Source: a virus
Virus record (IMG/VR): IMGVR_UViG_3300032782_000006
Location: 1 to 64,000 of that record
DNA: 64,000 bases
Strand: one strand, 5' to 3'
The position numbers and the translations under genes were made by a program. The stretch's first letter is position 1, and each line of letters opens with the position of its first letter. Shown here piece after piece: positions 1-62,145 of the stretch. Under the pieces are notes generated by a model. It did not search any database, had not been told where the DNA came from, and saw only the letters and a program-made list of their open reading frames with translations.

Positions 1-3000
1 AATCCCCGGCCAAGAGGTAACATTCCAGTAGCTCCTCTAAACGTTCCTCCAAACGATCCAAGACCACCGAACGAACCCATCCCGCCACCGAATGGATGAG
101 CTGTATGGAATGGAGACGCTATTCTACCACCAAAATGACCCCCACCACGTTCCCCATGATGCATTCCTGCAAGTAGTCCTGTGAGAGGGGAAAACTCAAA
201 TCCTCTTCCTCTCCCCCCCATTCCAACCATTCCCATTCCACCGAGGCCAAGCATTCCCAGCATGGAATAGAGACCAATTGGATCTAGCATTCCGCCAAGT
301 GAGCTTAATCCTAGTCCTCCAAACCCACCGTATCCCATTCCACCGCCGAGACCTCCGATTCCACCCATCCAGCCTCCTCCGCCGAATGGGCCGAATCCGC
401 CTAGTATACCATGGAATCCGAACCCGCTGACATCTCTTGCACCGCCTGGTTTGCCTAACAGATCTTTTAGATCTCCTCCTCCTTTTCCATGAGTTGCGGG
501 ACCTCGACCTGCTGCAGTTCTACCATCTCTTCCTTCTTTTTCACGTTCTGCCCGATCTCCTCTACCGTGACCTATTTCTCCTCTTCCTCTACCTCTTCCG
601 CCTTCTCTACCTCCTCTCTCTTCTCTGCCGTGCCAATGTTCTCTTCCCCTATCATGATCTCTTCCCCATCTTCCTCTTCCATGACCCCAGCCCCATCTCC
701 CCCTGCCGAATCCAAACATTCCAAATCCGCCTAGACCCATCAACCCCATTCCCCCACCGAGCAACATCTGGGCTAAGCTAACGATTCCCATCCCACCAAG
801 CAAACTCAATCCCATGAGTCCGCCCATCATACCTCCCATTCCTAGGAGTCCGAGCGGTCCCATCATTCCGCCAAATCCGAATCCTCCTCGTCCCCATCCA
901 AAGCCCATTCCATGTCTAAACATGTCATGACCTTCATGTCTCCCATGTTCTCTTCCACCTTCGTGTTCTCCCCCCCTTCCGTGACCTCTCCTACCTCCAT
1001 GATGATGTCTTCCCCATCTCCCCCATCTTCCCCATCCTCCAAGCCCCATCATCAAAGCTAAGAGACCTCCCATACCGCCAAACATCCCCATGCCGCCAAG
1101 ACCCATCATTCCGAGTCCGCCAAGTCCCATCATCCCAAATCCGAGACCTCCCATCAATCCAAGAGGTCCCAGCAATCCTCCCATCATGCCGAATGGACTA
1201 AACATTCCCCATCCTCTACCGTGATGATGATGTCCAAATCCATGCCTGCCATGAAGTCCACCCATACCCATTAGTAATCCGAGAGGCCCCAACATCCCTC
1301 CCATCATACCTAATCCGCCTAAACCACCGAGCAACCCTCCGAGACCCATCATCCCGCCTAAGAATCCTGGGAATCCCCATCTCCCGTGACCGAATCCGTG
1401 ACCTCCTCTCCCATGACCTTCGTGCCCGCGGCCATGTTCTCCATGTTCCCCGCCACCGCCTTCTCTTCCATGATGCCCACGGCGACCTCCATGATGTCTC
1501 CCGTGGTGATGTCTACCCCATCCAAACCCGAATCCACCGAGACCCATAAGTAATGGGAGCAGTCCCATCATACCCATTCCGAGGCCTCCCATCATGCCAA
1601 GAGGCCCTAATAGTCCTCCCATTAATCCTAATGGACCTAGCATACCTCCTAAGAATCCTGGGAATCCAAAACCGTGGTGATGATGATGATGTCCTCTATG
1701 TCCTCCTTCTCCGCCTCTACCATGTTCTCCTCTTTCTCTCCCCCCTCCTCTGCCGTGATGGCCGCCTCTACCGTGGTGATGCCTACCGAAATGATGCCAC
1801 CATCTCCCAAATCCTCCTAGACCCATGAGTAACGGTAGCAGACCCATCATACCCATTCCGAGGCCTCCCATCATGCCAAGAGGTCCTAATAGTCCTCCCA
1901 TCAATCCGAGTGGTCCCATCATACCCATTAATCCTAATGGGCCAAACATTCCTCCCATAAAGCCAGGGAATCCCCATCTCCCATGTCCGAATCCATGTTC
2001 GCCTCTCCCGTGACCTTCGTGTCCACGTCCACCGCGACCATGTTCTCCACCTCTTCCATGTTCCCCTCCATGTTCCCCTCCGTGTTCTCCTCCACCACGA
2101 CCTCCCATTCTGCCATGTTCTCCGTGGAATTCGCGACCAAATCTACCGTGTTCGCGTCCTCCTCGGTGTCTTCCTCCATGACGTTCATGACCTCCAAAAA
2201 TATCAGAGAATAATCTATGTAACCCTGGGATCCCTCCGAACATCCCAAGTCCACCTAACCCTCCAAGACCCAGTATGCCTAATAATCCAAGACCTCCAAG
2301 GCCTAAAGATCCCATCATTCCAAGAGGACCAAATCCTAGGCCAAGTACACCACCCCATCCACCTCTTCCATGTTCTCCTCGTTCCCCTCTTCCATGCCCT
2401 CCTCTCATACCTCCGCGATGTTCTCCTCCGCGTCCTCCCCCTTCTCCCCTGCCGTGATCTCCTCTTCCATGAGTAGCTCGGCCACCTTCATGACCCCCTC
2501 TACCTCCTCTTCCATGCCCTTCATGTCCATGGTGGTGACCATGATGGTGTCTTCCCCATCCGAATCTACCTAGGCCTAGGAGTAATGGTAATAATCCCAT
2601 CATACCTATGCCGCCCATCCCTAATAGGCCAAGAGGTCCAAGGAGACCGCCCATCATTCCGAAAGGCCCAAATAATCCTGGGAATCCAAAAACGTGATGA
2701 TGATGATGATGTCTCCCTCCCATACCTCCGTGATGTCCACCGTGTCCTTCATGACCTCCACGTCCTTCTCTTCCGCCGTGTCCTTCATGACCTCCGCCGT
2801 GACCTTCGTGTCCTCCTCTTCCCCCTCGGCCTCTTCCACCATGCATATGATGATGATGATGGAACTCACGCCCGAATCCGCCAAACAATCCTGGGAATCC
2901 GAATAATCCTCCCATGCCTCCAAGACCTAGGAGTCCAAGAGGTCCCATCATGCCAAGACCTCCCATCAACCCTAGTTCTTCAAGACCTAGAAGTCCAGGG

Positions 3001-5600
3001 AATCCTCCCCATCCGTGACCAAAGTGGTGTCTTCCTCCGTGTCCGCCACCGTGTCCTCCTCTTCCATGTCCTTCATGACCTCCTCTCCCGTGACCACCGT
3101 GTCCGCCTCTTCCGTGTCCTCCGTGATGATGTCTACCGAATAAATGACCTAATCTTCCTCGGCCAAATCCGAGTAACCCTAATCCAGGGAACCCTAACCC
3201 AAACCCACCTAGGCCTAACAACATTCCAAGTAGACCTAATCCTCCAAACTCTCCAAATTCTCCTCTTCCATGATGGTGTCTTCTATGATGTCTACCATGC
3301 CCTCTTCCATGTCCTTCGTGTCCTCCCCCATGACCTCTTCCGTGCCCACTTTCTCCACCTTCTCTTCCGTGTCCACTACCGCCGCCTCCTTCCCCTCCTT
3401 GTCCTTGCCCTCCACCTTCTCCGCCAGGTCCTCCTTGACCTCCTCCTGGCCCTCCTTCTCCACCAGGTCCACCTTGGCCGCCACCGGGACCTCCCATTTC
3501 TCCCCCTGGACCTCCACCCATACCGCCGCCTTCTCCGCCAGGCATTCCTCCACCCATACCTCCCATATCCCCTCCAGGTGCACCGCCTCCCATACCTCCG
3601 CCTCCATCTCCACCGGGCATACCTCCGCCCATACCACCCATATCTCCGCCAGGAGCTCCTCCCATTCCTCCTGACATGTCTCCACCGCCGCCCATACCTC
3701 CGGCTCCGCCCCCTCCAATTCCTTGATCCATCCCGCCGCCCATACCACCTTGTCCGCCTCCTTGTCCACCTTCTCCTCCTTGGCCTCCTCCACCGTGTCC
3801 TCCTTCCATTCCACCATGACCGCCTCTCCCATGCCCTCTATGTCCTCTGTGGCCGCCTCTCCCGTGTCCTCTGTGGTGTCTTCTATGATGAGGGAACCAG
3901 GGCAAAAACTCGTCATCAAGATCTCCGAATAAACCGAGTGGACCTAGTAAACCTCCCATCATTCCGAATGAACCTAGTCCTCCGTGTCCCCAACCTCTAC
4001 CGAATCCGAATGGGCCCCAATGTCCTCTACCACCAAATCCACCTCTACCCCTTCCTCCAAATCCTCCTCTTCCGTGTCCTCCTCTCCCGTGGCCTCCACC
4101 GTGCCTTCCTCTTCCCCATCCAAATCCACCGTGCCCGAATCCTCTTCCCCATCTGCCAAATCCTCCAAATCCGCGACCCCATCCTCCGAGACCCCAGAGT
4201 CCTCCCCCTCCCATCATCATAAGAAGTCCTAATAATCCTAGACCTCCTATGCCTCCTCCTGGTCCGCCTACATCGTCTCCATCATCGTCATCATCATCGT
4301 CATCGTCCCCCCCTCGACCATGTTTCCGACCTTTTTTGCCGTGTTTGCCACCTTTACCATGACCTCCTTGTCCTCCTCCTCCACCTTCTCCGCCAGGTCC
4401 TCCTTGACCTCCTCCTGGCCCTCCTTCTCCACCAGGTCCACCTTGGTCGCCACCGGGACCTCCCATTTCTCCCCCTGGTCCTCCTCCTCCAGGGCCACCC
4501 ATGTCTCCTCCTCCACCCATACCGCCCATATCTCCGCCTCCATCTCCACCAGGCATACCTCCGCCCATATCTCCACCTGGAGTTCCCCCCATATCTCCTC
4601 CACCGCCCATATCGCCCATATCTCCACCGGCTCCGCCTCCCATACCTGGATCCATGCCTCCGCCCATGCCTTGATCCATTCCACCACCCATTCCTCCTTG
4701 ATCCTGACCTCCGCCGCCGCCTCCCTGACCGCCTTGGCCTTGACCTTGATCCTGACCTCCGCTACCTCCTTGCCCGCCTCCACTTTTACCGCCTTGGCCT
4801 CCACCGTGTTTATGATGTTTCTTATGTTTTTTGTGGTGATGATGATGTTTTCTGTGGTGCCTGAATGGATCCCATTCGTCATCTAGATCTTCAAACATCC
4901 CCAACGGTCCTAGAAGACCTCCCATCATACCGAATGGCCCAAATCCGCCAAATCTACCTCTCTCAAACCCTCTTCCAAATCCGAATGGTCCCCATCCGCC
5001 TCTTCCACCTCTACCTCTACCACCAAATCTACCTCCAAATCCACCTCTGCCGTGCCCTCCTCTGCCGAATCCCCCTCTTCCTCCAAAGCCACCTCTACCA
5101 AATCCGAATCCTCTTCCTCCAAATCCTCTACCCCATCTTCCTAACCCTCCAAATCCACGACCCCAACCGCCGAGACCCCACATTCCAGGTAAAAATCCGA
5201 ATCGACCTCTACCCCTCATCATCATGAGAAGGGCTAGGAGACCAAGACCGCCTAATCCTGGACCAGGTCCCTGATCGTCTTCGTCTCCGTCATCATCGTC
5301 GTCTCCTCTTTTACCGTGCTTCCCTCTCTTTTTCTTTTTACTGCCTTTTCCACCACTGCCACTCTGATCTCCGCCCCCTCCTCCTCTTCCAGATCCTCCA
5401 CCACCGCTACCGCTACCATCATCTCCGCTACCACTTCCATCTCCTCCTGATCCATCGTCTCCTGGACCGCCTTGGCCTCCCCCCATTCCAGCGCCCATAT
5501 CTCCTGGACCACCGCTCATATCTCCTCCGGAGCCATCGCCCCCCTTGTCTCCTCCTGATCCATCGGGAGGTGCATCTCCCCAACCGTTATCTAAATCATT
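1..5600 (-). repeat. Gly-rich low-complexity coding region with internal duplications
   Basis: The + strand is extremely C-rich. Near-identical copies occur at ~3410-3510 and ~4380-4478, and similar copies at ~1540-1620 and ~1820-1900. Confidence 0.9.
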
Positions 5601-8600
5601 AGATCCAGTCCAAGCAGTACCTTCTGCTCCAGATCCATCAGATCCTGCGTCTGGAGATCCCCCTCCGCTACCATCAGGATTTTCATAAGTATCTGGAGAA
5701 GATTGAGACTCTGGCGGTTGATCTTGTAATTGTCCTTGCTCGTTACGATATCCACCGTTGTATGCTTGATCTTCGGGAGTATCAGCAGTGTACCCGGCAG
5801 CCCCTTCTCCAGTATCTCCAGCATTGTTCCCTAACTCATCTTGACCATACTGTTGTTGCTGCAACTGTTGCTGTAACTTCTGTTTTTGTTGTTTTTGCTT
5901 TTGCTGTTTCTGTTGGCGTGGCTTCTTTTGCTTCCTCTGTTTTCTTTGTCCACCACCACGACTTCTACTGCCTCTACCTGCGCCACTACCTCCTTTCCCA
6001 CTTCCACTACTACCTCTTTTATGTCTTCCCTTCTTCCCCTTCTTCCCCTTCTTTCCTAGATTGCCAAACATGCCACCTAGGTTACATTTTCCGCTAGCCA
6101 TGAGGTTTCTAGCCATTAACATACCTAATGGACCCATCCTCATTAGCATCAAAATTTGGAATAGACACATCATCCCCCCTAGAGGACTACCAGATCCGAC
6201 TCCAGTCTTTTTAGAACCGGCTAATTTGCCACCTGACCCGTCATCTCCTCCACTGCCACCACTACCACCGGTGCCACCTCCGCGACCACGACCACTTCTT
6301 CCGCTACCACCGCCCCCGCCTCCAGATCCAGTATCTCCTCCATATCCATCGTCTTCATATCCAGACCCGTCATCACCATAACCACTGTATCCTGATCCAT
6401 CATCACCATAGTTAGATCCATAACCAGAGCCATCATCTCCGTATCCACCACTGCCGTAGCCAGATCCATCATCATAAGATCCGGTATCTTGAGACTCTAC
6501 GTTTTCATAAGACTGATCTGGTGGAGTAGATTGAGTTCCAGCTTCTTGATCTGAATTGTCTTCATCAGTTCCAGTTTGAGATGATCCAGAACCACCGCTA
6601 CCAGAACTTCTACCTCCACTTCCACCAGATTCTTCAGAGGAAGAAGCCGCATGTGATGCAGCACTCGCTTTGTCTTTATAAGACTGGCAAGCTTTATCAT
6701 TCGCAGCACAAGTCTTGTTACATGAAGATTCGCAACTGCTAGCACAAGATTTATCCGATTGAGAACATCTGTTGTTACATTTTTCAGCAGTACTTGCTTT
6801 TTTCTCGTAAGATTCTATGACTTTATTGTTTGCATCTACTACAGACTTCCCAGAATCAGACGCTTTTTTGTTAGCATCTTCTGTAGCTTTCCCAACTTTA
6901 TTCTCATTTTCAATAATTTTGCTAGTGGTAGACGAGTTTGACGATAAAATAGTCCCATTATGGGTTTTCACAGTTTCAGTAATCTTGTTGTAAGCGGTAT
7001 TGACTCCGTTACTTACCTCGTTCCACTGTTTTTGAGACGTTTTTGCAAACTGATCATGAGTTTTGTTGATTTCATCTAATTGTTTTTTAGCAGAATCAGA
7101 AACTGCACCCACTACTTGAGAAGACATCTGTTTTTTAGAATTAAGAATATGACCGTCCGTAGTTTTAACATCGGAGACCATCTTCTCATTTGAAACCTTG
7201 AATCCGTTTACTACTTCATCCCAAGTAGTTTTTGCTACTCGTTTTACATCTCCAAGCTCGTTTTTATAATTTTCAATTAAAGTTTTAGCATCAGATGGAA
7301 CCCCTTCAGTAGCACCTTTTGGAGCTTCCTGACCCCCAGTTCTAGATCCATATCCAAACTGGTATTGATCTCTAAAACCAGATGGTCCTTGTTGGTACCT
7401 ACCAGAATCATAGCCTGTAGAGTACCCAGACCCTATTCCAGTACCTCTATATCCACGTCCACCATACCCTACATTATCGAAATAGTTTCCATCTTGATCA
7501 ATTTCGTTGCCTTGATCATCGTAATATTTTCCGTCGGTTCCACGATATGGGGTTCCGTGATATCTTTGCCCTCTTCCTCCCCATCCATCACCTGCGCCTG
7601 TACTTCCCCAATCTCCCATTCTTCTTCGATGTTTTCTGGAACCACTGCCTCCAGCTGGCATCCATTTCCCAGTTTTGGAATAATGGCCTCCATAATCTTG
7701 ATCTTGAAGATCTTTTATATTCGTGATTTGACCATATTTATTATAATGAGGGTAGGGGTCATCAGATTTTCTGAAATTTGGATTGATACTTCCATCTGGA
7801 AGATACTGGTTTTCTGCAATCCATTCATTGTATTCCTGATTATCTCTATCTAGACCAGAATCTTTTTTACTTCCTTTATGATGAGAAGGAGGCAACCCAT
7901 GTTCTCTTAAATCTTGATCACCATATGGATCCCAAGGACTTTTTGTGGGAGAATAATGAGTCCATTTCCCTGTCTTTAGATTTTGGTGCCATCCTTTTTT
8001 ATCAGCCCCCATCTCTACAGGGCCATATGGAGTTTCATGATGCCCTTTTCCCTTAGAAGTAGGGACTTTGGCACCGTGTTGTCTATAATAATCTTCATTA
8101 ATTCCAGACGAATACTCAGACGAAACTTGTTTTGGAAGTTTATGTTCATTACCGTATTTATCACGGTAATACATCTCTCCATCAGCACCAACATAAGCAT
8201 GAGCAGCATGTTCCGCACTGGCTTGACCGGCGTGATGTCTCCCCCCTCCTCCTCCTCTTCCAGGATGTTCCTTCTCAAGTTGTGCTATTTGGTCGGGAGT
8301 CATCCCGATTTTGGATAATAAACTTTCATCATATCCAGATTTGGTAAATGGTGATTTCGGAATTGTAGCTCCATGCCAATCCCCAGTACCAGATTTTCCC
8401 ATTAACTCACGAGTATATGGATTATATGCATATTGTTTGCTATGCCCTCCGCCTTTATGCCCCTGATGTAAATTCTTTTTATTTTGTTCCGCGATCATGC
8501 GGTTGATTTCACTTGCTGGAACCCCTGCCTCCTGCAATTCTTTTACATTATAGCCAGTAGGATCATTGGGGTCATATTCAATATTTGCTCCAGTCCAACC

Positions 8601-11600
8601 GCCATCTTTTTTAGATTTGACTAGTTTATGTGCCCCTTTATCCCATCTATAATTAGCATGACCTTTTTCACCATCCCCTCCTTTCCATGCAGGTACTGTA
8701 CTCCAATCTATATCTTCAGTAGTTTGTGCCTCTCCTGGTTTTCGAGGTGGTGGGGCTTTAATCCCTTTTCCTCCACCGCCACTAGTTCCGCCTGCTGATA
8801 ATCCTGCAGTATGGATAGATGGTGATTCTCCAGATGGGGGTGTTACCCCTGTAGTTCCATATCCTGAGAGGTCTATTTTTGGGACTAAGCTAATATCTCC
8901 AACTGAAATCGGTGGGGAAGTAGTAGTCGGAGCTGGAGTAGTTGGAGCTGAGGTAGTTGTAGTTGTAGGTGTGGATCCAGGCGTTGGCGATACTGATCCA
9001 GTGTACCCTGATTTTTCTAGCTCTTGCATTTTTGCAAGATTCATAGCGTTTCTAATTTTTGGATCAGTTTTTTCAAGAGTAGCTGCAGAAGTGTTATCTA
9101 TACCAGAAGAAGAAACTGATTTGGGTTTAACATCATTTACAAAATTGCCTGAAGCTAACCCTTTAGAATAATTATCAGCCCATTCTACTTGTTTATCCAA
9201 CTGTTTATTCCGCTCTAAAGCAGCTTCATAATTCTTTTTTGCACCTTTTTGAGCATCGGTAAGTTCTGAATCTGGTTTAAGCGCAAATGAGTAGTCTGGA
9301 AGATTGTATTCTTTTTTATAATAATCTAAAGCATCTCCTCGACTTTTACCATATGTAGGACTGACTCCTTGAGCTTTTTTCACTATATCATCATGGGATT
9401 GATATTTACCTGGTGTGATGAGCCCCTTCCCATACAATTCATCCGAACTTAAAGCCTGAGCTCCGCCTCCAGACCCTCCTAACTTTTCTTTAAGGAACCC
9501 CGTGATTTTATCGAGTGCTCCTCCTCCGCCTCCACCACTGGTGGGAGCTGCAGTTGTTCCACCTGCTCCTGGTGTAGTAGCTCCCCCGCCTCCGCCTCCT
9601 CCTAATCCTGCGAGTGACTGTACTGAAGATTTGATTTCTCCTACTTTAGTATCTACTTGAGATTTGAGAGTCGATAACGCAGATGCAACTTTCCCAGGGA
9701 GACTGTTTAATGCTTCGATTAGTTTGTTGACGTAATCAATAATTTTGTTGATTTCTTCGCCTATCTTTTGTGCTAAACCATTAAAGAAATTTTTGACATT
9801 AGTAACAAATGTAGACGCTGCTTTTTGTGCTCCATCCCATGCTTCCCCAAATTTTTGAGCAACTTGAACTACACTCTCTTTTAAATGAGTCCAAACTTCG
9901 TCTAAATCATTTTTAGCAGTCTGGATTCCACCAACTAATGTAGTTTTAAACCCATTGACAATTTGTTCCCATAACGCTGTAACTTTATCTACAAGGTTTG
10001 TTTGGATAGATTCTCTAATCTCATTCCAAACTGTATTGAGAGTGTTCTTCGCATTTTGGATACCGGTTACCAGTTTAGTTTTAAATTCAGAAACTACAGT
10101 TTCCCATGCAGAAGACAACTTTGTTTTTAGAGTGTTAGCTTCAGTAACTAACGAATCCCATATCCCATGTAATTTTTCAGATGCCGCGTTCTTTAAGTTT
10201 GTGACAAACGTTTTAGCTGTGGAAACTACTTCATTAAATCTAGACTCTAATTTTGTTTTTAAGTTCCCTGCTTCAGTAACTATATAATCCCATAACCCTG
10301 TTACTTTCCCAACCGCTGCATCTTTCAGTCTAGACCCAAACTCTTTTACAGTATTTACAATCTCGTTAAATTTGGTAGTTAAACTTGTCTTTAAAGAATC
10401 AGCGTCTTTTGTCAACTGTTCTTTCAGTTTTTCAAAATAATCTATCTTTTGGTCTCCACCAGTAGACGCAGATGCTTTTGGCATCAAATCCGGCATAGAC
10501 GGGACCAATTTTTTAAGGGTATCTCCAAGTGAAATTCCAGAAATTTCTTTTTTAATAGATGCAAATGCGGTTCTCAACTTGTCCGGGATACCTTCAATAT
10601 ATTTGATCCCTTTATCTAACTCCCCAGGTAATTTTTCAAAATCTTTTTTAAGATCTGATAACGCAGTTTTGGTTTCTGGAGAATTCAATACTTTTTGTAA
10701 CCCTTCAAAAGCAGTTTTTAGTAACCCAAAATGTCCTGCAAGTGCTATAGCTCCTACAACAATAGCGCCGCCTGGACCTAAAAATACGGCTAATGCGCCT
10801 AGAGCTGTTGCAGCTAATCCTAGTTGAATAGCCCATTGTTGAGTTGGGTCATCTAATTTTTTGAAATAATCTGCCAACTTTTCTAGGTCTTTCATTAAAG
10901 GTTCAAGAGCAGGAACTACTTGTTTCCCAATAATGTCGGCTACTGAATGCATGTTGGCAAGAAACTTATCCATCCTGCCAGGATCGCTATCCATCACTTT
11001 GTTATATGCAGTATCTAAAGCCTGAGGATTTCCTTCTATTTTTTGTCGAAGTTGGGCAAGTCCTTGTTGACCTATACCTATTTTAGGATCTACCAAACCT
11101 ATAGCTGCACGTTCGTCAACTAAGCCGAACATGTCTTTATAATTAAAAGTTTTATCTTTATTTTCAGGTCTCCCCATCACATTTTGCATGTAACCGATGG
11201 CGCCTTCAAACCCTTGAGGATTCTCAGCTGGATCTACATATTTTGGATCCATTCCAAACCGTTTCATTTCATTCAAGGCAGGCTTAGGAGGTTCATGCAT
11301 TCTTGCATATATCCCTCGTACAAACCTCGCTCCTTGTTTTCCCCGTATACCTAACTTGGATTCCGCTGCGGTTACCGCTGCTTGAGTGCCTATTGGGATC
11401 CCTAATTGCCGTGCAACTAATGCTTGCTCGGCCATTGCATCTTCAGTCTCACTCGGAACTCCTGATCCTTCAATATTGGTAGCATATACCAAATTAAACA
11501 TTTTTTCAGAATTTTCCGCATTTACTGGTAAACCCAATGCCCCAAACATCCCTACATGTTTATTGATCAATTTACTTGCGTCTGGATGTTCTGGACTTGC

Positions 11601-13853
11601 TTTCACAAACTTATTTGCAGATTTTACCATCCCTGGAACTTCGCTTGGTGGTACATTTGCCATCAATGCACCGCCTTGCGTTTGGGCGGAATATTCTGGA
11701 GTCATCCCATAATTTGGGGCTTCGTATAAATTGATCCTTTCAAATTCTGCTTCTTGTTCTGGAGTGAGGTTTGCTGCTGCAGCACCTTGTTTTTCCACAC
11801 GTTTCATTTTTAACCAATCTTCAACTCCGACCCCTTCAACTATTCCTGCTGCAAGAGTCGGCATTAAAGCATGATGGGTAAGGTATCTCCCAAATTGTCT
11901 TGCTCCCCCACTCTCAAATAAAGAGCTAGCTCCTACATCTCCTTCCGTTTCAGCGATTGCTGCCTGAGATGGAGTAATCTCTTTACCCCTATATTGTGTT
12001 GTAGGAACTTTCGCGCCCTTTGTTGTTATATATCCTGCTGCTGCTCCTTCAGCATTGGCAAAAGAGGGACTTCCGGCCGAGGATTCAAGTTCGGATTCTG
12101 TTCCTCTACCCCCTGCTGCAGCCATTGGACTAGTTACATTGATCTCAGCCATTGCTGCATTAAACGCACTGGCATATGCTGCTCCAGCTTCCGCTCCTTT
12201 TGCAGATGCAATTTCAGTCCCAGATTCTAAACTAGTTTCTAAAGAAGCAGAAAACTCTGATCCAAAACCCATTGATTCTAGAAGACTAGTTTTAAAAGAT
12301 TGACCTATAGTTGTAAACCGAGCTCCGAGTTCGGCTTCTGCTCCTTCTAATCCAGAAGAAATCCCTGCCACCATTTCTTTACCGATATCGGCCATTGAGG
12401 CAGTTAAGGTAGTACCAATAGCCTCTCCAATACCAGTAAACTTTGCAACAATCTCAGATTCTGCGCTATCTAACCCAGCAGTAATCGATCCTATAATCTC
12501 TTTACCGACACCAGATAATCCTTCAGATAAACTAGTTCCAATTGCTGTTGCTATTCCACTAAACTTCCCTGCGATCTCAGATTCTGCACCCTCCAATCCA
12601 CTAGTGATAGCCCCTACCATTTCTGGGCCAACATGATACAAAGAATTAATTAACTCTGTACTTATTGCATCTCCTATAGTTTCAAACTTGGCTACAATCT
12701 CAGATTTGGCTCCTTCGACCCCTTCGGCGATTGTAAACGCCATCGTTTCACCGGTTTCAGCTAACGACGTTGTAAGTGATTCTTTGATTGCTGCTCCGAT
12801 CCCACTAAACTTTTCTACAATTTCTGTTTCAGCACCAGATAGTCCAGAGGTGACCTCTGCAACCATTTCAGTTCCAGTGTCCGATAATCCAGTTGTTAAC
12901 GCAGATTTTATTTCAGAATCTATTCCTTCAAACGCGGCTGCAATTTCGGTTTTAGCATCGGCAAGACCACTGGTAATCTCAGTTACCATTTCTTTTCCGA
13001 TATCGGATAACCCTGAAGTCAACTCAGTTTTGATTTCAGTATCTATACCTTCAAACGCGGCTGCAATTTCAGTTTTGGCTTCAGATAACCCAGATGTGAT
13101 CTCAGTTATCATCTCTTGACCAATATCAGCCAACCCTTCTTTTAACTGAGTAGTAATTTCAGCATCGGTTCCCTCAAATTGTGCAGCTATCTCAGTTTTG
13201 GCTTCAGATAATCCACTAGTGATTTCGGAAACCATCTCTTCTCCAACATCAGCTAATCCCTCTTTTAACTGAGTAGAGATTTCAGTTCCGACTCCTTCAA
13301 ATTCAGCAACGATTTCAGATTTAGCTTCGGTAAGACCGCCAGTAATTTCACTGACCATCTCTTCACCGGTCTCAGCTAACCCTTCTTTTAACTGAGTAGA
13401 AATTTCAGTTCCAACACCTTCAAACTCAGCAACAATTTCAGATTTAGCTTCGGTCAACCCTGAAGTGATCTCGCTGACCATTTCTTGACCAGCACCAGAT
13501 AACCCTTCCGTTAGCTGACTAGAAATTTCAGTTCCTATTCCTTCAAAAGTAGAAATGATTTCGGTTTTAACTCCCTGTAACTCAGTATCTAGAGTAGTCC
13601 CGATTTTTTCCCCCACACCAGAAAAAGATGAAGTAAGTTCTTCAGACGCTTCTTTCCCAAACTCTTCAAACTTTAATTTGGCAGAATCTAGAGCAGTTGT
13701 TAACGAAGTAGAGAAACTTTCCCCTACTTCTCTCATTTTGGTCTCGATACTCTCAAGAGATGCGTTAATTTTTTCAGTGTCTTCCGGTATCGTACTTTTT
13801 AGGCCTACGGTAGCGTATATACCGCCTACAAACTGCCCTTCTTCTCCTGCCAT
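1..13853 (-). CDS. Giant tail tape measure protein (>4617 aa, C-terminus outside window) with large low-complexity C-terminal extension
   Basis: ATG at 13853 (MAGEEGQFVGGIYATVGL). The same frame is still open at position 3 (..GATGMLPLGRG), and the ORF track lists no closed ORF in this frame. It has 40-aa helical repeats, a TMP-core-like segment (~11900-10800) and Trp-spaced repeats, and lies directly after the tail chaperones. Confidence 0.9.
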   Translation of the reverse strand, partial: MAGEEGQFVGGIYATVGLKSTIPEDTEKINASLESIETKMREVGESFSTSLTTALDSAKLKFEEFGKEASEELTSSFSGVGEKIGTTLDTELQGVKTEIISTFEGIGTEISSQLTEGLSGAGQEMVSEITSGLTEAKSEIVAEFEGVGTEISTQLKEGLAETGEEMVSEITGGLTEAKSEIVAEFEGVGTEISTQLKEGLADVGEEMVSEITSGLSEAKTEIAAQFEGTDAEITTQLKEGLADIGQEMITEITSGLSEAKTEIAAAFEGIDTEIKTELTSGLSDIGKEMVTEITSGLADAKTEIAAAFEGIDSEIKSALTTGLSDTGTEMVAEVTSGLSGAETEIVEKFSGIGAAIKESLTTSLAETGETMAFTIAEGVEGAKSEIVAKFETIGDAISTELINSLYHVGPEMVGAITSGLEGAESEIAGKFSGIATAIGTSLSEGLSGVGKEIIGSITAGLDSAESEIVAKFTGIGEAIGTTLTASMADIGKEMVAGISSGLEGAEAELGARFTTIGQSFKTSLLESMGFGSEFSASLETSLESGTEIASAKGAEAGAAYASAFNAAMAEINVTSPMAAAGGRGTESELESSAGSPSFANAEGAAAGYITTKGAKVPTTQYRGKEITPSQAAIAETEGDVGASSLFESGGARQFGRYLTHHALMPTLAAGIVEGVGVEDWLKMKRVEKQGAAAANLTPEQEAEFERINLYEAPNYGMTPEYSAQTQGGALMANVPPSEVPGMVKSANKFVKASPEHPDASKLINKHVGMFGALGLPVNAENSEKMFNLVYATNIEGSGVPSETEDAMAEQALVARQLGIPIGTQAAVTAAESKLGIRGKQGARFVRGIYARMHEPPKPALNEMKRFGMDPKYVDPAENPQGFEGAIGYMQNVMGRPENKDKTFNYKDMFGLVDERAAIGLVDPKIGIGQQGLAQLRQKIEGNPQALDTAYNKVMDSDPGRMDKFLANMHSVADIIGKQVVPALEPLMKDLEKLADYFKKLDDPTQQWAIQLGLAATALGALAVFLGPGGAIVVGAIALAGHFGLLKTAFEGLQKVLNSPETKTALSDLKKDFEKLPGELDKGIKYIEGIPDKLRTAFASIKKEISGISLGDTLKKLVPSMPDLMPKASASTGGDQKIDYFEKLKEQLTKDADSLKTSLTTKFNEIVNTVKEFGSRLKDAAVGKVTGLWDYIVTEAGNLKTKLESRFNEVVSTAKTFVTNLKNAASEKLHGIWDSLVTEANTLKTKLSSAWETVVSEFKTKLVTGIQNAKNTLNTVWNEIRESIQTNLVDKVTALWEQIVNGFKTTLVGGIQTAKNDLDEVWTHLKESVVQVAQKFGEAWDGAQKAASTFVTNVKNFFNGLAQKIGEEINKIIDYVNKLIEALNSLPGKVASALSTLKSQVDTKVGEIKSSVQSLAGLGGGGGGGATTPGAGGTTAAPTSGGGGGGALDKITGFLKEKLGGSGGGAQALSSDELYGKGLITPGKYQSHDDIVKKAQGVSPTYGKSRGDALDYYKKEYNLPDYSFALKPDSELTDAQKGAKKNYEAALERNKQLDKQVEWADNYSKGLASGNFVNDVKPKSVSSSGIDNTSAATLEKTDPKIRNAMNLAKMQELEKSGYTGSVSPTPGSTPTTTTTSAPTTPAPTTTSPPISVGDISLVPKIDLSGYGTTGVTPPSGESPSIHTAGLSAGGTSGGGGKGIKAPPPRKPGEAQTTEDIDWSTVPAWKGGDGEKGHANYRWDKGAHKLVKSKKDGGWTGANIEYDPNDPTGYNVKELQEAGVPASEINRMIAEQNKKNLHQGHKGGGHSKQYAYNPYTRELMGKSGTGDWHGATIPKSPFTKSGYDESLLSKIGMTPDQIAQLEKEHPGRGGGGGRHHAGQASAEHAAHAYVGADGEMYYRDKYGNEHKLPKQVSSEYSSGINEDYYRQHGAKVPTSKGKGHHETPYGPVEMGADKKGWHQNLKTGKWTHYSPTKSPWDPYGDQDLREHGLPPSHHKGSKKDSGLDRDNQEYNEWIAENQYLPDGSINPNFRKSDDPYPHYNKYGQITNIKDLQDQDYGGHYSKTGKWMPAGGSGSRKHRRRMGDWGSTGAGDGWGGRGQRYHGTPYRGTDGKYYDDQGNEIDQDGNYFDNVGYGGRGYRGTGIGSGYSTGYDSGRYQQGPSGFRDQYQFGYGSRTGGQEAPKGATEGVPSDAKTLIENYKNELGDVKRVAKTTWDEVVNGFKVSNEKMVSDVKTTDGHILNSKKQMSSQVVGAVSDSAKKQLDEINKTHDQFAKTSQKQWNEVSNGVNTAYNKITETVKTHNGTILSSNSSTTSKIIENENKVGKATEDANKKASDSGKSVVDANNKVIESYEKKASTAEKCNNRCSQSDKSCASSCESSCNKTCAANDKACQSYKDKASAASHAASSSEESGGSGGRSSGSGGSGSSQTGTDEDNSDQEAGTQSTPPDQSYENVESQDTGSYDDGSGYGSGGYGDDGSGYGSNYGDDGSGYSGYGDDGSGYEDDGYGGDTGSGGGGGGSGRSGRGRGGGTGGSGGSGGDDGSGGKLAGSKKTGVGSGSPLGGMMCLFQILMLMRMGPLGMLMARNLMASGKCNLGGMFGNLGKKGKKGKKGRHKRGSSGSGKGGSGAGRGSRSRGGGQRKQRKQKKPRQQKQQKQKQQKQKLQQQLQQQQYGQDELGNNAGDTGEGAAGYTADTPEDQAYNGGYRNEQGQLQDQPPESQSSPDTYENPDGSGGGSPDAGSDGSGAEGTAWTGSNDLDNGWGDAPPDGSGGDKGGDGSGGDMSGGPGDMGAGMGGGQGGPGDDGSGGDGSGSGDDGSGSGGGGSGRGGGGGDQSGSGGKGSKKKKRGKHGKRGDDDDDGDEDDQGPGPGLGGLGLLALLMMMRGRGRFGFLPGMWGLGGWGRGFGGLGRWGRGFGGRGFGFGRGGFGGRGGFGRGGHGRGGFGGRFGGRGRGGRGGWGPFGFGRGFERGRFGGFGPFGMMGGLLGPLGMFEDLDDEWDPFRHHRKHHHHHKKHKKHHKHGGGQGGKSGGGQGGSGGQDQGQGQGGQGGGGGGQDQGGMGGGMDQGMGGGMDPGMGGGAGGDMGDMGGGGDMGGTPGGDMGGGMPGGDGGGDMGGMGGGGDMGGPGGGGPGGEMGGPGGDQGGPGGEGGPGGGQGGPGGEGGGGGQGGHGKGGKHGKKGRKHGRGGDDDDDDDDDGDDVGGPGGGIGGLGLLGLLMMMGGGGLWGLGGWGRGFGGFGRWGRGFGHGGFGWGRGRHGGGHGRGGHGRGGFGGRGRGGFGGRGHWGPFGFGRGWGHGGLGSFGMMGGLLGPLGLFGDLDDEFLPWFPHHRRHHRGHGRGGHRGHRGHGRGGHGGMEGGHGGGGQGGEGGQGGGQGGMGGGMDQGIGGGGAGGMGGGGDMSGGMGGAPGGDMGGMGGGMPGGDGGGGMGGGAPGGDMGGMGGGMPGGEGGGMGGGPGGEMGGPGGGQGGPGGEGGPGGGQGGPGGEGGGQGQGGEGGGGSGHGREGGESGHGRGHGGGHEGHGRGHGRHHRRHHHGRGEFGEFGGLGLLGMLLGLGGFGLGFPGLGLLGFGRGRLGHLFGRHHHGGHGRGGHGGHGRGGHEGHGRGGHGGGHGGRHHFGHGWGGFPGLLGLEELGLMGGLGMMGPLGLLGLGGMGGLFGFPGLFGGFGREFHHHHHMHGGRGRGGRGGHEGHGGGHEGHGGREGRGGHEGHGGHHGGMGGRHHHHHHVFGFPGLFGPFGMMGGLLGPLGLLGMGGIGMMGLLPLLLGLGRFGWGRHHHGHHHGHEGHGRGGRGGHEGGRATHGRGDHGRGEGGGRGGEHRGGMRGGHGRGERGEHGRGGWGGVLGLGFGPLGMMGSLGLGGLGLLGILGLGGLGGLGMFGGIPGLHRLFSDIFGGHERHGGRHRGGREHGRFGREFHGEHGRMGGRGGGEHGGEHGGEHGRGGEHGRGGRGHEGHGRGEHGFGHGRWGFPGFMGGMFGPLGLMGMMGPLGLMGGLLGPLGMMGGLGMGMMGLLPLLMGLGGFGRWWHHFGRHHHGRGGHHGRGGGRERGEHGRGGEGGHRGHHHHHHGFGFPGFLGGMLGPLGLMGGLLGPLGMMGGLGMGMMGLLPLLMGLGGFGFGWGRHHHGRHHGGRRGHHGREGGGGEHGEHGRGHEGHGRGGHGFGHGRWGFPGFLGGMMGLGGLLGGLGGLGMMGGMLGPLGLLMGMGGLHGRHGFGHHHHGRGWGMFSPFGMMGGLLGPLGLMGGLGFGMMGLGGLGMMGLGGMGMFGGMGGLLALMMGLGGWGRWGRWGRHHHGGRRGHGRGGEHEGGREHGRHEGHDMFRHGMGFGWGRGGFGFGGMMGPLGLLGMGGMMGGLMGLSLLGGMGIVSLAQMLLGGGMGLMGLGGFGMFGFGRGRWGWGHGRGRWGRDHDRGREHWHGREERGGREGGRGRGRGEIGHGRGDRAEREKEGRDGRTAAGRGPATHGKGGGDLKDLLGKPGGARDVSGFGFHGILGGFGPFGGGGWMGGIGGLGGGMGYGGFGGLGLSSLGGMLDPIGLYSMLGMLGLGGMGMVGMGGRGRGFEFSPLTGLLAGMHHGERGGGHFGGRIASPFHTAHPFGGGMGSFGGLGSFGGTFRGATGMLPLGRG
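12300..13560 (-). repeat. About ten 120-bp (40-aa) tape-measure repeats
   Basis: The unit FEGVGTEISTQLKEGLAETGEEMVSEITGGLTEAKSEIVAE recurs every 120 nt. Confidence 0.9.
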
Positions 13854-13868
13854 CGTTTTTACCATCCA

Positions 13869-14192
13869 TTATGGATTTGGTTGATTTTGATTTATATCTA
13901 CTACTTGCCCCCCTAATGCTTGATTTGCTGCCATCACTTCAGCCCATATTTGGTCAACTGTTCTTTTCTTTGGTTTTGGTATCATAGATTCCGGCAAGAA
14001 ATCTTCAATATCATACCCATGATCTGAATTCCGTTTTGTGACCCCATGGACATTACATATTAATGCAAGAAGTTGGGCTTGGCGATAAACCTTGACTTCT
14101 TCTCGTTTCATTGCTGCTGTTATCATGATCTCCGTTTCTGCCGGAGTATACTTCCAAAACTCGATAGGATCGATTTCGCAGAACCGAAACAT
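13869..14192 (-). CDS. Tail assembly chaperone, T segment (probably reached by -1 frameshift)
   Basis: IDPIEFWKYTPAE motif and position between the G chaperone and the TMP. The frame is open back to 14318. Confidence 0.8.
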   Translation of the reverse strand: MFRFCEIDPIEFWKYTPAETEIMITAAMKREEVKVYRQAQLLALICNVHGVTKRNSDHGYDIEDFLPESMIPKPKKRTVDQIWAEVMAANQALGGQVVDINQNQPNP

Positions 14193-14212
14193 GTTTCGCT
14201 GTGCGTTTTCGA

Positions 14213-14641
14213 TCAGTTCTTTGACGGTTTGCGGCTTCTTGATTTGGTCGGAGTCTTCACTATTTCCACTTCCTCCTCCTCCTCCTCCTCCTCCTCCATA
14301 TCCTGAACTTCCCCCGTATCATCCCCCTGATAGTCTTGAGGTGCCGAAATGATTCCAGAAGCAAGCAATGCTTTGCCAACAACATCTGATAATTCAGCTA
14401 TGGAATGTCCTTCTAGATACCCATCCATAATCTGGAACATATCTTGATCAGTCAGATTAGGGAATTTGTGAAGAAGTCCAGCCCACAAAATTTTTCTTAA
14501 GTGTTTAGGTCCAATCTCTGAAATTATTCTGTCGAAATCTGAGAAAGCTGGGGTATCCAATGCATCTGTCAAAGCCTCTAACCCACCCCATCCATACCGG
14601 AGTGTGTAGTCTCCATAAAACTTTACTTCTTTTGAAACCAT
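14213..14641 (-). CDS. Tail assembly chaperone G
   Basis: Position after the tail tube gene, LRKILWAGLLH motif and acidic tail. Start moved to ATG 14641, behind the conserved leader. Confidence 0.8.
   Translation of the reverse strand: MVSKEVKFYGDYTLRYGWGGLEALTDALDTPAFSDFDRIISEIGPKHLRKILWAGLLHKFPNLTDQDMFQIMDGYLEGHSIAELSDVVGKALLASGIISAPQDYQGDDTGEVQDMEEEEEEEEEVEIVKTPTKSRSRKPSKN
14309..14315 (-). other. Programmed -1 frameshift slippery site G GGG GAA
   Basis: The heptamer is correctly phased in G. The -1 frame opens just before it (TGA at 14321-14319) and stays open into T. Confidence 0.8.
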
Positions 14642-14807
14642 GTGGTACAATCTCCATTTTTTAAGTCTTATATTTGGTTTTCAGACACCAGTTTTTTCTA
14701 ATGTCTGTCAACCAAAGTATAAGTGCTTCTGTTATTTAATTACGATGTAGAGACATTATCCGTTTTTTTGCAGAAGCAAGCGTTTTTCATAACTCAAACT
14801 ATAGCCA

Positions 14808-15659
14808 TCAGGTTAGGGAGTACATACTGAAATAATATATGGCGGGAGAATATGTCGCACATGATATCATTACAGCCAAGTTGACTACACTTGATGTAGC
14901 GAGTACTAAAGCAGTCTGTGGCAAAACTGGAGTGGATCCTGAGTTCAAGGTAGCTGTATAGGGGCTTGAAGATCCAGTAAATGCAACGGTCAACGAGTTA
15001 TTAACTACACCTGTCTGATTAGTAAATAAAGAACAGGTGACCGTAAGAGTACAGTTCGGTACAGTTGAGCTGGCAACTATAGAGGTAATAGGATGTGTTC
15101 CTCCTCCAGCCGCGAATGTAGCAACATACGTTCCACCGCTTGTAGTTCCAGTAGTTAGGGCTGGAATCGTAGTCGCAACTGGTGTGAACACAATTGGTGT
15201 TGCAGCCATTGGGACTACAAGGGTAGACAATGTTGGAGGTCCAGTGATTTTTACAACTGCAGTGAACTGAATCAAATCTTTTTTGACTTCAGTTGTAAAT
15301 GATTTCAACAGACCGTAGTAAGACCAGCTAGCACCGTTCGGGAATAGGATGGTATACAAGTTGATAGTCTGGTTGATAGATGCATTGTAAAGAGCCTGTT
15401 GACCTGGATCTGTGGCAACATAGTTCCCGGTCATTGTTGCATCTCTACCGTTTCTTCGACCAGGTTTCCATTCTTTATAGATACCGGAATCCTGGTTGGT
15501 AACATCGATTTCGGCAGTGTCCATCAAAGGAACTGGGACTCCAGTATCTTCAACTTCTGCAATATGTGTGCCGTCTATCGATATTAAAATGTTCTTTGCA
15601 ACAGTCGCCTGACTGCCTGCATAGGTGGATATTAACCCACCAAACTGATTTGTAGCCAT
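14808..15659 (-). CDS. Major tail tube protein with C-terminal Thr-rich beta extension
   Basis: EIDVTNQDSGIYKEWKPGRR..GNYVATDPGQQAL..YTILFPNG is a siphovirus tube pattern. Confidence 0.85.
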   Translation of the reverse strand: MATNQFGGLISTYAGSQATVAKNILISIDGTHIAEVEDTGVPVPLMDTAEIDVTNQDSGIYKEWKPGRRNGRDATMTGNYVATDPGQQALYNASINQTINLYTILFPNGASWSYYGLLKSFTTEVKKDLIQFTAVVKITGPPTLSTLVVPMAATPIVFTPVATTIPALTTGTTSGGTYVATFAAGGGTHPITSIVASSTVPNCTLTVTCSLFTNQTGVVNNSLTVAFTGSSSPYTATLNSGSTPVLPQTALVLATSSVVNLAVMISCATYSPAIYYFSMYSLT

Positions 15660-17393: not shown

Positions 17394-17722
17394 ACCATAA
17401 CTTTCAGGTATCCTCCATCTGAAGGGAAGGTAGTCTGTGCAGAATCTTGCATGACTAAAAACTGACCACTAAACTGACCTGGCACACTAGTATGAGTGGG
17501 ATCAAACGGAATTGTTATTCCTCCATCTTTAGCTTTGACATCGTTACCATCTGGAGTAGTAGCGTCTTTGGTGCATGGAATCGAGTACAACACTCCGGCT
17601 GAATTGTTCATCACAAATGTAATATCCGCATCTGCTAAGTTAGCACCTACATCCTGAGCTTTTAGAATCACTGCTATATCATTTGTGTCCCCCTGATTTA
17701 AATTTATGTCATAAGTTGTCAT
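17375..17722 (-). CDS. BppU N-terminal-like Ig-fold anchor protein
   Basis: LNQGDT..LADADITFVM..HTSVPGQFSGQF..TFPSDGGYLKV pattern. Confidence 0.65.
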   Translation of the reverse strand: MTTYDINLNQGDTNDIAVILKAQDVGANLADADITFVMNNSAGVLYSIPCTKDATTPDGNDVKAKDGGITIPFDPTHTSVPGQFSGQFLVMQDSAQTTFPSDGGYLKVMVWESLS

Positions 17723-61911: not shown

Positions 61912-62145
61912 TTATAATGTGAGTATTAACATTCCCGCTGCAAAAAATATGATTTGGGATACAAATAATACTACAGTTTTTACCACTGGATTATTTGTGA
62001 TAAACAACCCACAAAATATAAAATCTCCAATCAGCATAATTATTAAAATTATCGGCACTTTCAAATCCGAGGGAATCGCTGATAATCTGTTCACACCTTT
62101 GCATTTTTTAAATGGTTGATTTTCGGTCTCATGTGGCAAAATCAC
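61912..62145 (-). CDS. Two-TM membrane protein
   Basis: Two hydrophobic segments. Confidence 0.6.
   Translation of the reverse strand: MILPHETENQPFKKCKGVNRLSAIPSDLKVPIILIIMLIGDFIFCGLFITNNPVVKTVVLFVSQIIFFAAGMLILTL

What the first reader, a model, noticed from the sequence alone, without database searches (positions are those of the whole stretch)
1..13853. Hidden giant ORF whose length is decoupled from a plausible tail length
Seen: more than 4617 uninterrupted codons, of which only about the first 1400 aa and a segment at ~7300-6800 look helical. Established: about 0.15 nm of tail per TMP residue. Inference: a full-length ruler would give a tail of roughly 700 nm, versus about 200 nm for the first helical part. 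So either the tail is exceptionally long, or most of the protein is packed cargo or is cleaved off.
Basis: partly seen in the sequence, partly recalled or inferred. Interest (0 to 1): 0.7.

Follow-up and report, generated by a model that had tools for sequence, protein, structure and literature searches.

The report
Giant disordered-tailed archaeal virus tape measure
This is the tail-length "ruler" gene of an uncultured wetland virus that probably infects Methanosarcina; at 4,780 residues it rivals the largest known rulers, and its last two thirds are an unstructured glycine-rich block polymer with no detectable relative, so the tail is probably very long and not "decoupled" from the gene.

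Summary
One uninterrupted reading frame runs on the minus strand from window 13865 to the window edge (4,621 codons). It continues across the circular junction of the 77,440-bp virus contig to a stop, giving 4,780 aa, or 18.5% of the genome. It lies directly after the major tail protein and the chaperone pair, and residues ~690-1560 match tape measure families, so it is the tape measure protein (TMP). The rest is a mosaic of low-complexity modules. It ends in ~1,800 aa of alternating His/Arg/Gly blocks and uncharged Gly/Leu/Met/Phe blocks. Codon-position composition, ordered diverged repeats and an independent assembly of the source run support a real, translated sequence.

The "decoupled from tail length" reading is only partly supported. 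TMPs of 5,002 aa with ~0.8-1 µm tails are known (Thermus phage P23-45/P74-26). The low-complexity part lies between the TMP core and the C-terminal end, so by analogy it should sit in the tail lumen. Volume arithmetic gives a tail of at least ~330-460 nm, up to ~700 nm. A ~200 nm tail would need removal before assembly, which is unknown for any TMP. No relative was found. This scan has noted other giant TMPs on other DNA, but none with this composition.

The parts
1..13865 (-). Tape measure gene. Codons 1-4621 lie in the window; the frame continues across the contig junction (contig 77440..76963 = L001 12963-13440) to 4,780 aa.
   Evidence: PHROGs TMP families
12198..13811 (-). N-terminal array of about 13 diverged 41-aa (123-nt) acidic helix-prone repeats, aa 19-556; aa 1-560 carry a net charge of -71.
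9186..11798 (-). TMP-homologous core, aa ~690-1560. This is the only part with family matches.
   Evidence: phrog_1272 6.9e-36 and 10 other TMP families
10734..10847 (-). Canonical TMP hydrophobic segment, aa 1007-1044.
7326..9575 (-). Middle insert, aa 1431-2180: poly-Gly and Pro/Thr linkers, then a Lys/Tyr/His/Gly/Asp-rich stretch with Tyr/Gly/Arg-rich low-complexity sequence. No family match and mostly no predicted regular structure.
6756..7325 (-). Second helical segment, aa 2181-2370, a weak copy of the core's helical repeats. It ends in a cluster of Cys residues (about aa 2363-2395).
5526..6755 (-). Low-complexity part 1, aa 2371-2780: acidic Ser/Gly/Tyr/Asp stretch, a membrane-like helix pair (aa 2561-2590), then Lys-rich and Gln/Lys-rich stretches.
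3276..5525 (-). Low-complexity part 2, aa 2781-3530: a ~325-aa super-repeat in two copies plus a partial third. Each copy runs through acidic Gly/Asp/Met, basic Lys/His, poly-Asp, hydrophobic Gly/Leu/Met, Arg-Gly/Phe-Gly and His-rich blocks. About 50% Gly.
66..3275 (-). Low-complexity part 3, aa 3531-4600: about ten ~100-aa modules that alternate His/Arg/Gly/Glu blocks (GHGRGG 11 times across aa 2781-4620) with uncharged Gly/Leu/Met/Phe/Pro blocks of 19-62 aa (GPLG[LM] 14 times in the whole protein).
1..65 (-). Start of the non-repetitive Asn/Ser/Ala/Gly-rich C-terminal end (aa 4601-4780; the rest lies beyond the window in L001 12966-13440). Proposed tip-docking end.
   Evidence: no family match; role inferred by analogy
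14213..14650 (-). Tail assembly chaperone (G-like).
   Evidence: phrog_2115, 1.5e-11
13869..14192 (-). ORF in the -1 frame relative to the chaperone gene. That frame is open about 43 codons upstream of its ATG and overlaps the chaperone gene's end, which is the usual G/GT arrangement. No canonical slippery heptamer was found.
14808..15659 (-). Major tail (tube) protein.
   Evidence: phrog_158 1.1e-14, phrog_41 1.1e-11

Best explanation
The ORF is the tape measure gene of a complete, uncultured siphovirus-type archaeal virus. The virus has a 77.4-kb genome with terminal repeats, comes from a wetland metagenome, and probably infects a methanochondroitin-coated Methanosarcina. The gene is translated as one 486-kDa chain. 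Shown here: the gene position, the TMP homology of aa ~690-1560, the continuity of the frame, and evidence of protein-level constraint on the low-complexity part. Inferred: the C-terminal end docks in the tail-tip hub, as in solved tails. That would place the ~3,000 non-helical residues in the distal tail lumen, in 3-6 copies. The tube built around them would then be far longer than the ~210-240 nm given by the helical part alone: at least ~330-460 nm, and ~700 nm if the usual 0.15 nm per residue holds. At infection the tail-tip depolymerase domain (disaggregatase-related) would cut the capsule. The distal, disordered part of the TMP would leave first. Its cationic His/Arg blocks would stick to the anionic capsule or S-layer, and its uncharged Gly/Leu/Met blocks would associate with each other or with the membrane. 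Together they would help build the long conduit that the TMP core then completes. This last step is speculation by analogy with lambda gpH*.
For: Gene order on the minus strand is major tail protein, chaperone, -1-frame ORF, then this ORF, followed by a 1,674-aa tail protein with beta-helix and Disaggr_assoc domains and a 647-aa tail protein. Eleven TMP families match aa ~690-1560, and the tblastn hits are annotated tape measure genes. A hydrophobic segment lies at aa 1007-1044. A second TMP-like helical segment at aa 2181-2370 shows the middle part is an insert within the TMP, not an appended gene. Translation of the low-complexity part: GC3 is 0.32-0.34, like other genes, while GC1 and GC2 rise to 0.56-0.76. 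Paralogous blocks keep 71-76% residue identity against 51-52% for shuffles, while their synonymous sites are saturated at pS 0.6-0.77. The other minus-strand frames are full of stops. A unitig at uniform depth spans window 4449-14000, across the core-to-low-complexity transition. Host: PF08480 occurs twice in the virus and, among 14 control genomes, only in Methanosarcina acetivorans. The capsule is up to ~170 nm thick and negatively charged (PMC12369344). Tail length: volume arithmetic; precedents for ~5,000-aa TMPs with ~1 µm tails (PMC10770324, PMC10034513); C-terminus in the hub and a 36 Å lumen in archaeal HFTV1 (PMC12494034); lambda gpH* forms the trans-envelope channel (PMC12617516).
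Against: No virion, micrograph or proteome exists for this virus. No relative was found, so nothing could be tested by comparison. The C-terminal 180 aa match no family, so their docking role rests on analogy only. The structure predictions used a single sequence and have low confidence. The synonymous/non-synonymous contrast is inflated, because Gly aligns with Gly in any Gly-rich pair. Window 1-1853 was not re-covered by the second assembly. The host call rests on one domain family. How a chaperone-coated disordered chain sets tube length is unknown, so the nm-per-residue figure for this part could lie anywhere between about 0.03 and 0.15.
Confidence: 0.55

Rival explanations
1. Full ruler with no special role. 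Every residue counts at ~0.15 nm, the tail is ~700 nm, and the low-complexity part is cheap, expandable filler that lengthens the tail, like the polyG/polyA/polyS tracts and tandem repeats common in TMPs.
For: The rule holds up to 5,002 aa in P23-45/P74-26 and for 9-kb TMP genes with 500-nm tails (PMC10770324, PMC10034513, PMC4919401). PolyX tracts occur in 95.5% of TMPs and scale with TMP length (PMC13585406). The region is built of repeats.
Against: Filler would not be expected to keep an ordered pattern of alternating blocks and exact motifs (GGLLGPLG 6 times, GHGRGG 11 times) after synonymous sites have saturated. None of the 150 best TMP homologues has a 200-aa window above 23.5% Gly, against 59.5% here. 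This rival overlaps the best explanation on tail length.
Confidence: 0.2
2. Processed precursor. The chain is cut near the poly-Gly linkers after the core (about aa 1420-1470) before or during tail assembly. The tail is then ~200-240 nm, and the C-terminal ~3,200 aa are released in the producing cell or packed elsewhere.
For: Lambda and T5 TMPs are cleaved, lambda in a glycine-rich region (PMC12617516). Poly-Gly linkers follow the core. The virus encodes a papain-family protease. Earlier notes of this scan proposed polyprotein-like giant TMPs on other DNA (unchecked here).
Against: In lambda the cut comes after the tail has been measured, and the fragment stays at the tip (PMC12617516). A TMP-like helical segment recurs at aa 2181-2370, downstream of the supposed cut. 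The non-repetitive C-terminal end would have no role. No cleavage motif or protease link was found.
Confidence: 0.12
3. Two products from one gene. A programmed -1 frameshift at A_AAA_AAG (aa 1542-1544, window 9234-9240), followed by a stop two codons later, makes a normal ~1,546-aa TMP alongside a minor full-length form. This is the pattern of dnaX and of the G/GT chaperones.
For: The heptamer lies at the end of the TMP-homologous core, and the -1 frame stops after two codons.
Against: Slippery heptamers are not enriched: 12 observed against 18 ± 4.4 in codon shuffles. This very heptamer appears in 55% of shuffles. The downstream fold is weak, -7.2 kcal/mol over 60 nt.
Confidence: 0.05
4. Assembly artefact. 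The Gly-rich 6 kb is a chimeric join or a mis-collapsed repeat, and the real gene is shorter or interrupted.
For: Repeats break the second assembly into unitigs at window 3409-3509 and about 4407-4449. Window 1-1853 was not re-covered.
Against: There are no differences over window 1854-14000. Depth is uniform at 13.5-14.5x, with repeat unitigs at ~27x, as expected for two copies. GC3 is constant. The contig closes through this gene by a 127-bp terminal repeat, and the record is rated complete.
Confidence: 0.05

Closest known systems
Thermus phages P23-45 gp96 and P74-26 gp95: giant tape measure proteins (5,002 aa) of siphoviruses with ~0.8-1 µm tails (PMC10770324, PMC10034513)
   Same: The size class is the same, in a genome of similar size. 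Only part of the chain looks like a classical TMP, and the rest is extra material carried in the tail and delivered to the host.
   Different: There the extra part is a folded N-terminal virion RNA polymerase. Here it lies in the C-terminal two thirds, is disordered and of low complexity, and shows no enzyme signature. There are no RNAP family hits, and DxDxD occurs only inside poly-Asp runs. No sequence relationship was detected. The host is probably archaeal, not bacterial.
Phage lambda gpH, which becomes gpH* plus gpHC (PMC12617516)
   Same: It has a glycine-rich region toward the C-terminus, the C-terminal end is at the tip hub, and the ejected TMP forms the trans-envelope conduit.
   Different: gpH has 853 aa and a short Gly-rich zone. 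Here about 2,200 aa are Gly-rich. Cleavage is not shown here.
HFTV1 gp40, the only fully modelled archaeal virus TMP (PMC12494034)
   Same: It is from an archaeal tailed virus, the TMP lies in a 36 Å lumen with its C-terminus docked in the hub, and it is expelled with the DNA.
   Different: gp40 has 341 aa, is entirely helical and forms a 56-nm tail. The present protein is 14 times longer and mostly non-helical.
Abductin and His/Gly-rich structural proteins such as squid beak HBPs and Nereis Nvjp-1 (PMC13052691, PMC6884462, PMC9465683)
   Same: The resemblance is in composition only. The uncharged blocks are 43.5% Gly, 23% Leu, 15% Met and 7.5% Phe, like the Gly/Met/Phe random-coil rubber abductin. 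They alternate with Gly/His blocks like those that give pH- or metal-switchable condensation in HBPs and Nvjp-1.
   Different: There is no homology. The abductin decapeptide GGFGGMGGGX is absent. These are animal extracellular materials, and any mechanical or phase behaviour here is untested.

Membership tests
Tail length tape measure protein (TMP) of long-tailed viruses | The gene lies directly downstream of the major tail protein and the chaperone pair, and upstream of the tail-tip genes. | tested here: met
Tail length tape measure protein (TMP) of long-tailed viruses | Sequence similarity to TMP families. | tested here: met
   11 PHROG TMP families, best 6.9e-36, covering only aa ~690-1560; 590 distant homologues, best 1.1e-14 at 22% identity.
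Tail length tape measure protein (TMP) of long-tailed viruses | Internal hydrophobic segment or segments. | tested here: met
   aa 1007-1044, plus about 16 atypical Gly-rich hydrophobic blocks further on
Tail length tape measure protein (TMP) of long-tailed viruses | Largely alpha-helical along its length. | tested here: inconclusive
   Only ~1,620-1,850 of 4,780 residues are helix-prone. AF2 finds no regular structure in aa 3401-4600 (single sequence, low confidence).
Tail length tape measure protein (TMP) of long-tailed viruses | Sets tail length at ~0.15 nm per residue, lies in the lumen, and is expelled at infection. | not testable with these tools
   Needs micrographs and virion proteomics. 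Only bounds could be computed.
P23-45-type TMP fused to a virion RNA polymerase | N-terminal two-barrel RNAP domain with a DxDxD metal site. | tested here: not met
   No RNAP family in Pfam or PHROGs. DxDxD occurs only inside poly-Asp runs at aa 2855-2859 and 3187-3193. The N-terminus consists of 41-aa repeats.
Lambda gpH-type processed TMP | Proteolytic cut in the Gly-rich region after tail assembly. | not testable with these tools
   Gly-rich linkers are present. No cleavage data.
Abductin-like elastomer | Tandem GGFGGMGGGX decapeptides. | tested here: not met
   The motif is absent. GGFGG occurs 5 times and GGMGGG 8 times. The resemblance is in composition only.

The most novel reading that the evidence does not exclude
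The C-terminal ~2,200 residues are a functional, intrinsically disordered amphiphilic block polymer stored in the tail lumen. When expelled, it self-assembles into a long conduit or plug through the ~170-nm anionic methanochondroitin capsule and the S-layer of Methanosarcina. The assembly could be switched by His protonation or metal binding, and the polymer could also act as a compressed entropic spring. This would be a penetration device made of disordered protein rather than of folded domains, on an archaeal virus with a tail several times longer than any described for archaea (the comparison with described archaeal virus tails rests on my own knowledge).
Probability: 0.2. Interest if true: 0.8.

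Novelty: new variant of a known kind. Interest (0 to 1): 0.55.

Why it matters
Giant tape measures are known, so size alone is not new. Three things would matter if confirmed. (1) A several-hundred-nanometre tail on a virus of a methanogen; to my knowledge, described archaeal tailed viruses have short tails (HFTV1: 56 nm). (2) A test case for what sets tail length when most of the ruler is not a helix, which bears directly on the ruler mechanism. (3) A ~300-kDa ordered block polymer of His/Arg/Gly and Gly/Leu/Met segments, apparently under constraint and without any relative among 1.8 billion protein clusters, delivered at the cell surface. It may show how a virus crosses a thick anionic capsule. 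Methanosarcina viruses are also of practical interest for methane-producing systems.

Tried and rejected
1. Relatives. Word-indexed searches found nothing significant with the TMP core, the low-complexity part or the C-terminal end. An exhaustive HMMER search with the core found only distant TMPs of 414-2,863 aa. The ESM Atlas gave no usable hit (one search was a size slip). Close-relative scans with the tail tube, capsid-region and portal-like proteins and the disaggregatase-like protein found nothing in viral, genome or metagenome contigs. A back-translated MMGGLLGPLG pattern found nothing in viral or metagenome contigs. No comparative test was therefore possible.

3. PDB sequence searches of aa 1-1560 and aa 1561-2400 found nothing meaningful.

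4. A programmed frameshift giving a short TMP is not supported. Slippery heptamers are not enriched, and the A_AAA_AAG at aa 1543 is expected by chance.

5. Assembly artefact is rejected for window 1854-14000. No contig was laid on window 1-1853.

6. No RNA holder was listed among public runs, so expression could not be examined.

7. The first self-BLAST attempts returned only the self-hit and were replaced by chunked BLAST.

8. The Nei-Gojobori ratios (0.13-0.32) are reported only as 'order kept while synonymous sites are saturated', because Gly-on-Gly alignment biases them.
Full report
OBSERVATION

The window holds a minus-strand frame from an ATG at 13865 to the window edge, 4,621 codons without a stop. 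The window is bases 1-64000 of a single 77,567-bp contig whose first and last 127 bases are identical. IMG/VR classes the record as having direct terminal repeats, and CheckV rates it 100% complete.

Read as a circle of 77,440 bp, the frame runs on for 159 more codons to a stop at contig 76963. That gives 4,780 aa and 486 kDa, 18.5% of the genome. The two other minus-strand frames carry 9-62 stops per 1.5 kb. One plus-strand frame is partly open in the Gly-rich stretch, as expected for such composition.

The only public run holding the DNA is a wetland metagenome, probably the source sample. An independent assembly of it (Logan) reproduces window 1854-14000 with no differences. Depth is a flat ~14x, and the two short repeat unitigs sit at ~27x. 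One unitig spans 4449-14000, across the change from ordinary to low-complexity sequence. Window 1-1853 was not re-covered.

WHAT IT IS

On the minus strand the gene order is:
- large terminase (49616-51040);
- a weak Mu-type portal match (37169-38590);
- two unknown giants of 1,228 and 2,167 aa;
- connector genes;
- major tail protein (14808-15659);
- chaperone (14213-14650);
- an ORF in the -1 frame that overlaps the chaperone gene's end (13869-14192);
- this gene;
- beyond the junction, a 1,674-aa tail protein with beta-helix and disaggregatase-related domains, and a 647-aa tail protein.

This is the standard siphovirus tail module, and the giant gene occupies the tape measure slot. Eleven PHROG tape measure families match it, but only within aa ~690-1560 (best 6.9e-36). 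tblastn hits in phage genomes fall on annotated tape measure genes at 21-25% identity. A hydrophobic segment of the usual kind lies at aa 1007-1044.

ANATOMY

- aa 19-556: about 13 diverged 41-aa acidic, helix-prone repeats.
- aa 561-1430: helix-prone TMP core.
- aa 1431-2180: poly-Gly and Pro/Thr linkers, then a Lys/Tyr/His/Asp/Gly-rich stretch ending in Tyr/Gly/Arg-rich low-complexity sequence.
- aa 2181-2370: a second helical segment. It resembles the core's helical repeats weakly (BLASTP 7e-4, shared W-x-x-V-N-G-F-K; weak TMP family hits) and ends in a Cys cluster.
- aa 2371-2780: acidic Ser/Gly/Tyr/Asp stretch, a membrane-like helix pair, then Lys-rich and Gln/Lys-rich stretches.
- aa 2781-3530: a ~325-aa super-repeat in two copies plus a partial third, with ordered acidic, basic, poly-Asp, hydrophobic, Arg-Gly/Phe-Gly and His-rich blocks.
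- aa 3531-4600: about ten ~100-aa modules. His/Arg/Gly/Glu blocks alternate with uncharged blocks of 19-62 aa, which are 43.5% Gly, 23% Leu, 15% Met and 7.5% Phe.
- aa 4601-4780: a non-repetitive Asn/Ser/Ala/Gly-rich end.

Helical sequence covers the first ~1,400 aa and window ~7300-6800. This rests on a crude propensity scan and on single-sequence AlphaFold2, which gives helices at aa 2191-2367 and nearly none in aa 3401-4600 (pLDDT 34-40).

IS THE LOW-COMPLEXITY PART REAL PROTEIN?

The rise in G+C from 0.40 to 0.55 lies entirely in codon positions 1 and 2 (0.56-0.76). Position 3 stays at 0.32-0.34, within the range of the virus's other genes, and Gly codon use matches theirs.

Paralogous blocks keep 71-76% residue identity. 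Composition-matched shuffles give 51-52%, with a maximum of 61%. Their synonymous sites are saturated, at pS 0.60-0.77. So the repeats are old at the DNA level and their order is maintained. The dN/dS values themselves are biased by Gly-on-Gly alignment, and I do not lean on them.

HOW UNUSUAL?

Size alone is not unprecedented. [quoted passage not shown] P74-26 has a tail of almost a micron (PMC10034513). Gordonia phages with 9-kb TMP genes have 500-nm tails (PMC4919401). This scan has also noted TMPs of 4,108 and 4,908 aa on other DNA (unchecked here).

The composition is what stands out. Among the 150 best of 590 distant homologues from 1.84 billion cluster representatives, the median length is 936 aa and the maximum 2,863 aa. 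None has a 200-aa window above 23.5% Gly, against 59.5% here (73% for Gly+His+Arg). No relative of the low-complexity part, of the C-terminal end or of the virus itself was found in any collection.

TAIL LENGTH

The 0.15 nm per residue rule (0.145 nm in TP901-1, PMC5099701) gives 717 nm for the whole chain and 243 nm for the ~1,620 residues of the helix-prone segments (aa 1-1430 and 2181-2370).

In solved tails the TMP C-terminus is docked in the tip hub and the chain runs up the lumen, in six copies in lambda and in archaeal HFTV1, whose lumen is 36 Å wide (PMC12617516, PMC12494034). The low-complexity part here lies between the core and the C-terminal end, and a TMP-like helical segment recurs within it. 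If this TMP is oriented like those, the low-complexity part must lie in the lumen.

Its 2,980 residues occupy 361 nm³ per chain. That needs 86-213 nm of tube at solid packing (3 or 6 copies, 3.6-4.0 nm lumen). At 50% fill it needs 170-430 nm, and a six-helix TMP bundle already fills ~52%.

The expected tail is therefore at least ~330-460 nm and up to ~700 nm. A ~200-nm tail would need removal of the C-terminal two thirds before the tube is built. In lambda the cut follows measurement (PMC12617516). 'Decoupling' is at most partial.

HOST AND PROPOSED MECHANISM

The disaggregatase-related domain PF08480 occurs in a free 379-aa protein (4.2e-23) and inside the tail protein next to the TMP. Among 14 control genomes it is found only in Methanosarcina acetivorans.

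Disaggregatase cuts methanochondroitin. This polymer is unique to Methanosarcina, negatively charged, and forms a capsule up to ~170 nm thick in freshwater types (PMC12369344). The sample is a wetland.

I infer a capsule-digesting tail tip and a long reach. More speculatively, the disordered distal TMP leaves first and helps build the conduit across the capsule, S-layer and membrane, as lambda gpH* does across the periplasm (PMC12617516). Cationic His/Arg blocks would bind the anionic matrix, and Gly/Leu/Met blocks would associate with each other or with lipid.

The uncharged blocks resemble the random-coil rubber abductin in composition only (PMC13052691). The decapeptide is absent.

RIVALS

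- Plain filler that lengthens the ruler: possible, but it does not explain the ordered blocks.
- Processing before assembly: no support here.
- A dnaX-like frameshift at A_AAA_AAG (aa 1543) giving a short TMP: such sites are not enriched, and this one is expected by chance.
- Misassembly: contradicted for window 1854-14000.

VERDICT

The gene is real, and it is the tape measure. It is a new variant of a known kind, and of moderate to high interest for its composition and its probable archaeal host rather than for its size.

Noticed in passing
window 17719-27909 (-): Two adjacent giant ORFs of 2,167 and 1,228 aa lie between the capsid-region genes and the connector genes. Neither has a Pfam or PHROG match. 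Together with the TMP they take about 32% of the genome.
   Followed up: partly
L001 7890-12914 (-) = contig 71890-76914: The 1,674-aa tail protein directly downstream of the TMP carries beta-helix and disaggregatase-related (PF08480) domains. It is a likely methanochondroitin depolymerase at the tail tip.
   Followed up: partly
window 33695-34834 (-): A free 379-aa beta-helix protein with PF08480 (4.2e-23). In one search the open frame around the match is 460 aa, so the true start may lie upstream of the first ATG/GTG/TTG.
   Followed up: partly
window 40753-41535 (-): A papain-family cysteine protease (PF00112, 1.9e-17) encoded by the virus. Possible roles are S-layer attack, lysis or virion protein processing; none was tested.
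   Followed up: no
window 13869-14650 (-): The chaperone gene ends in a run of GAG/GGA codons (a poly-Glu tract). The next ORF is in its -1 frame, which is open for ~43 codons of overlap. No canonical X_XXY_YYZ site was found, so a G/GT frameshift, if it occurs, uses an unusual site.
   Followed up: partly
window 6681-6779 (-), aa ~2363-2395 of the TMP: A cluster of Cys residues at regular spacing (mostly C-x3-C and C-x6-C) at the end of the second helical segment. It could be a metal-binding or cross-linking site.
   Followed up: no
window 62142-62759 (-): A short thymidylate-synthase-like ORF (PF00303, 2.2e-11; 205 aa, matching only the C-terminal half of the profile).
   Followed up: no
window 49616-51040 (-): The large terminase is 43-47% identical to terminases of bacterial phages (Pseudanabaena, Brevundimonas, Microcystis), while the structural genes have no close relative. 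Terminase alone would mislead host assignment.
   Followed up: no
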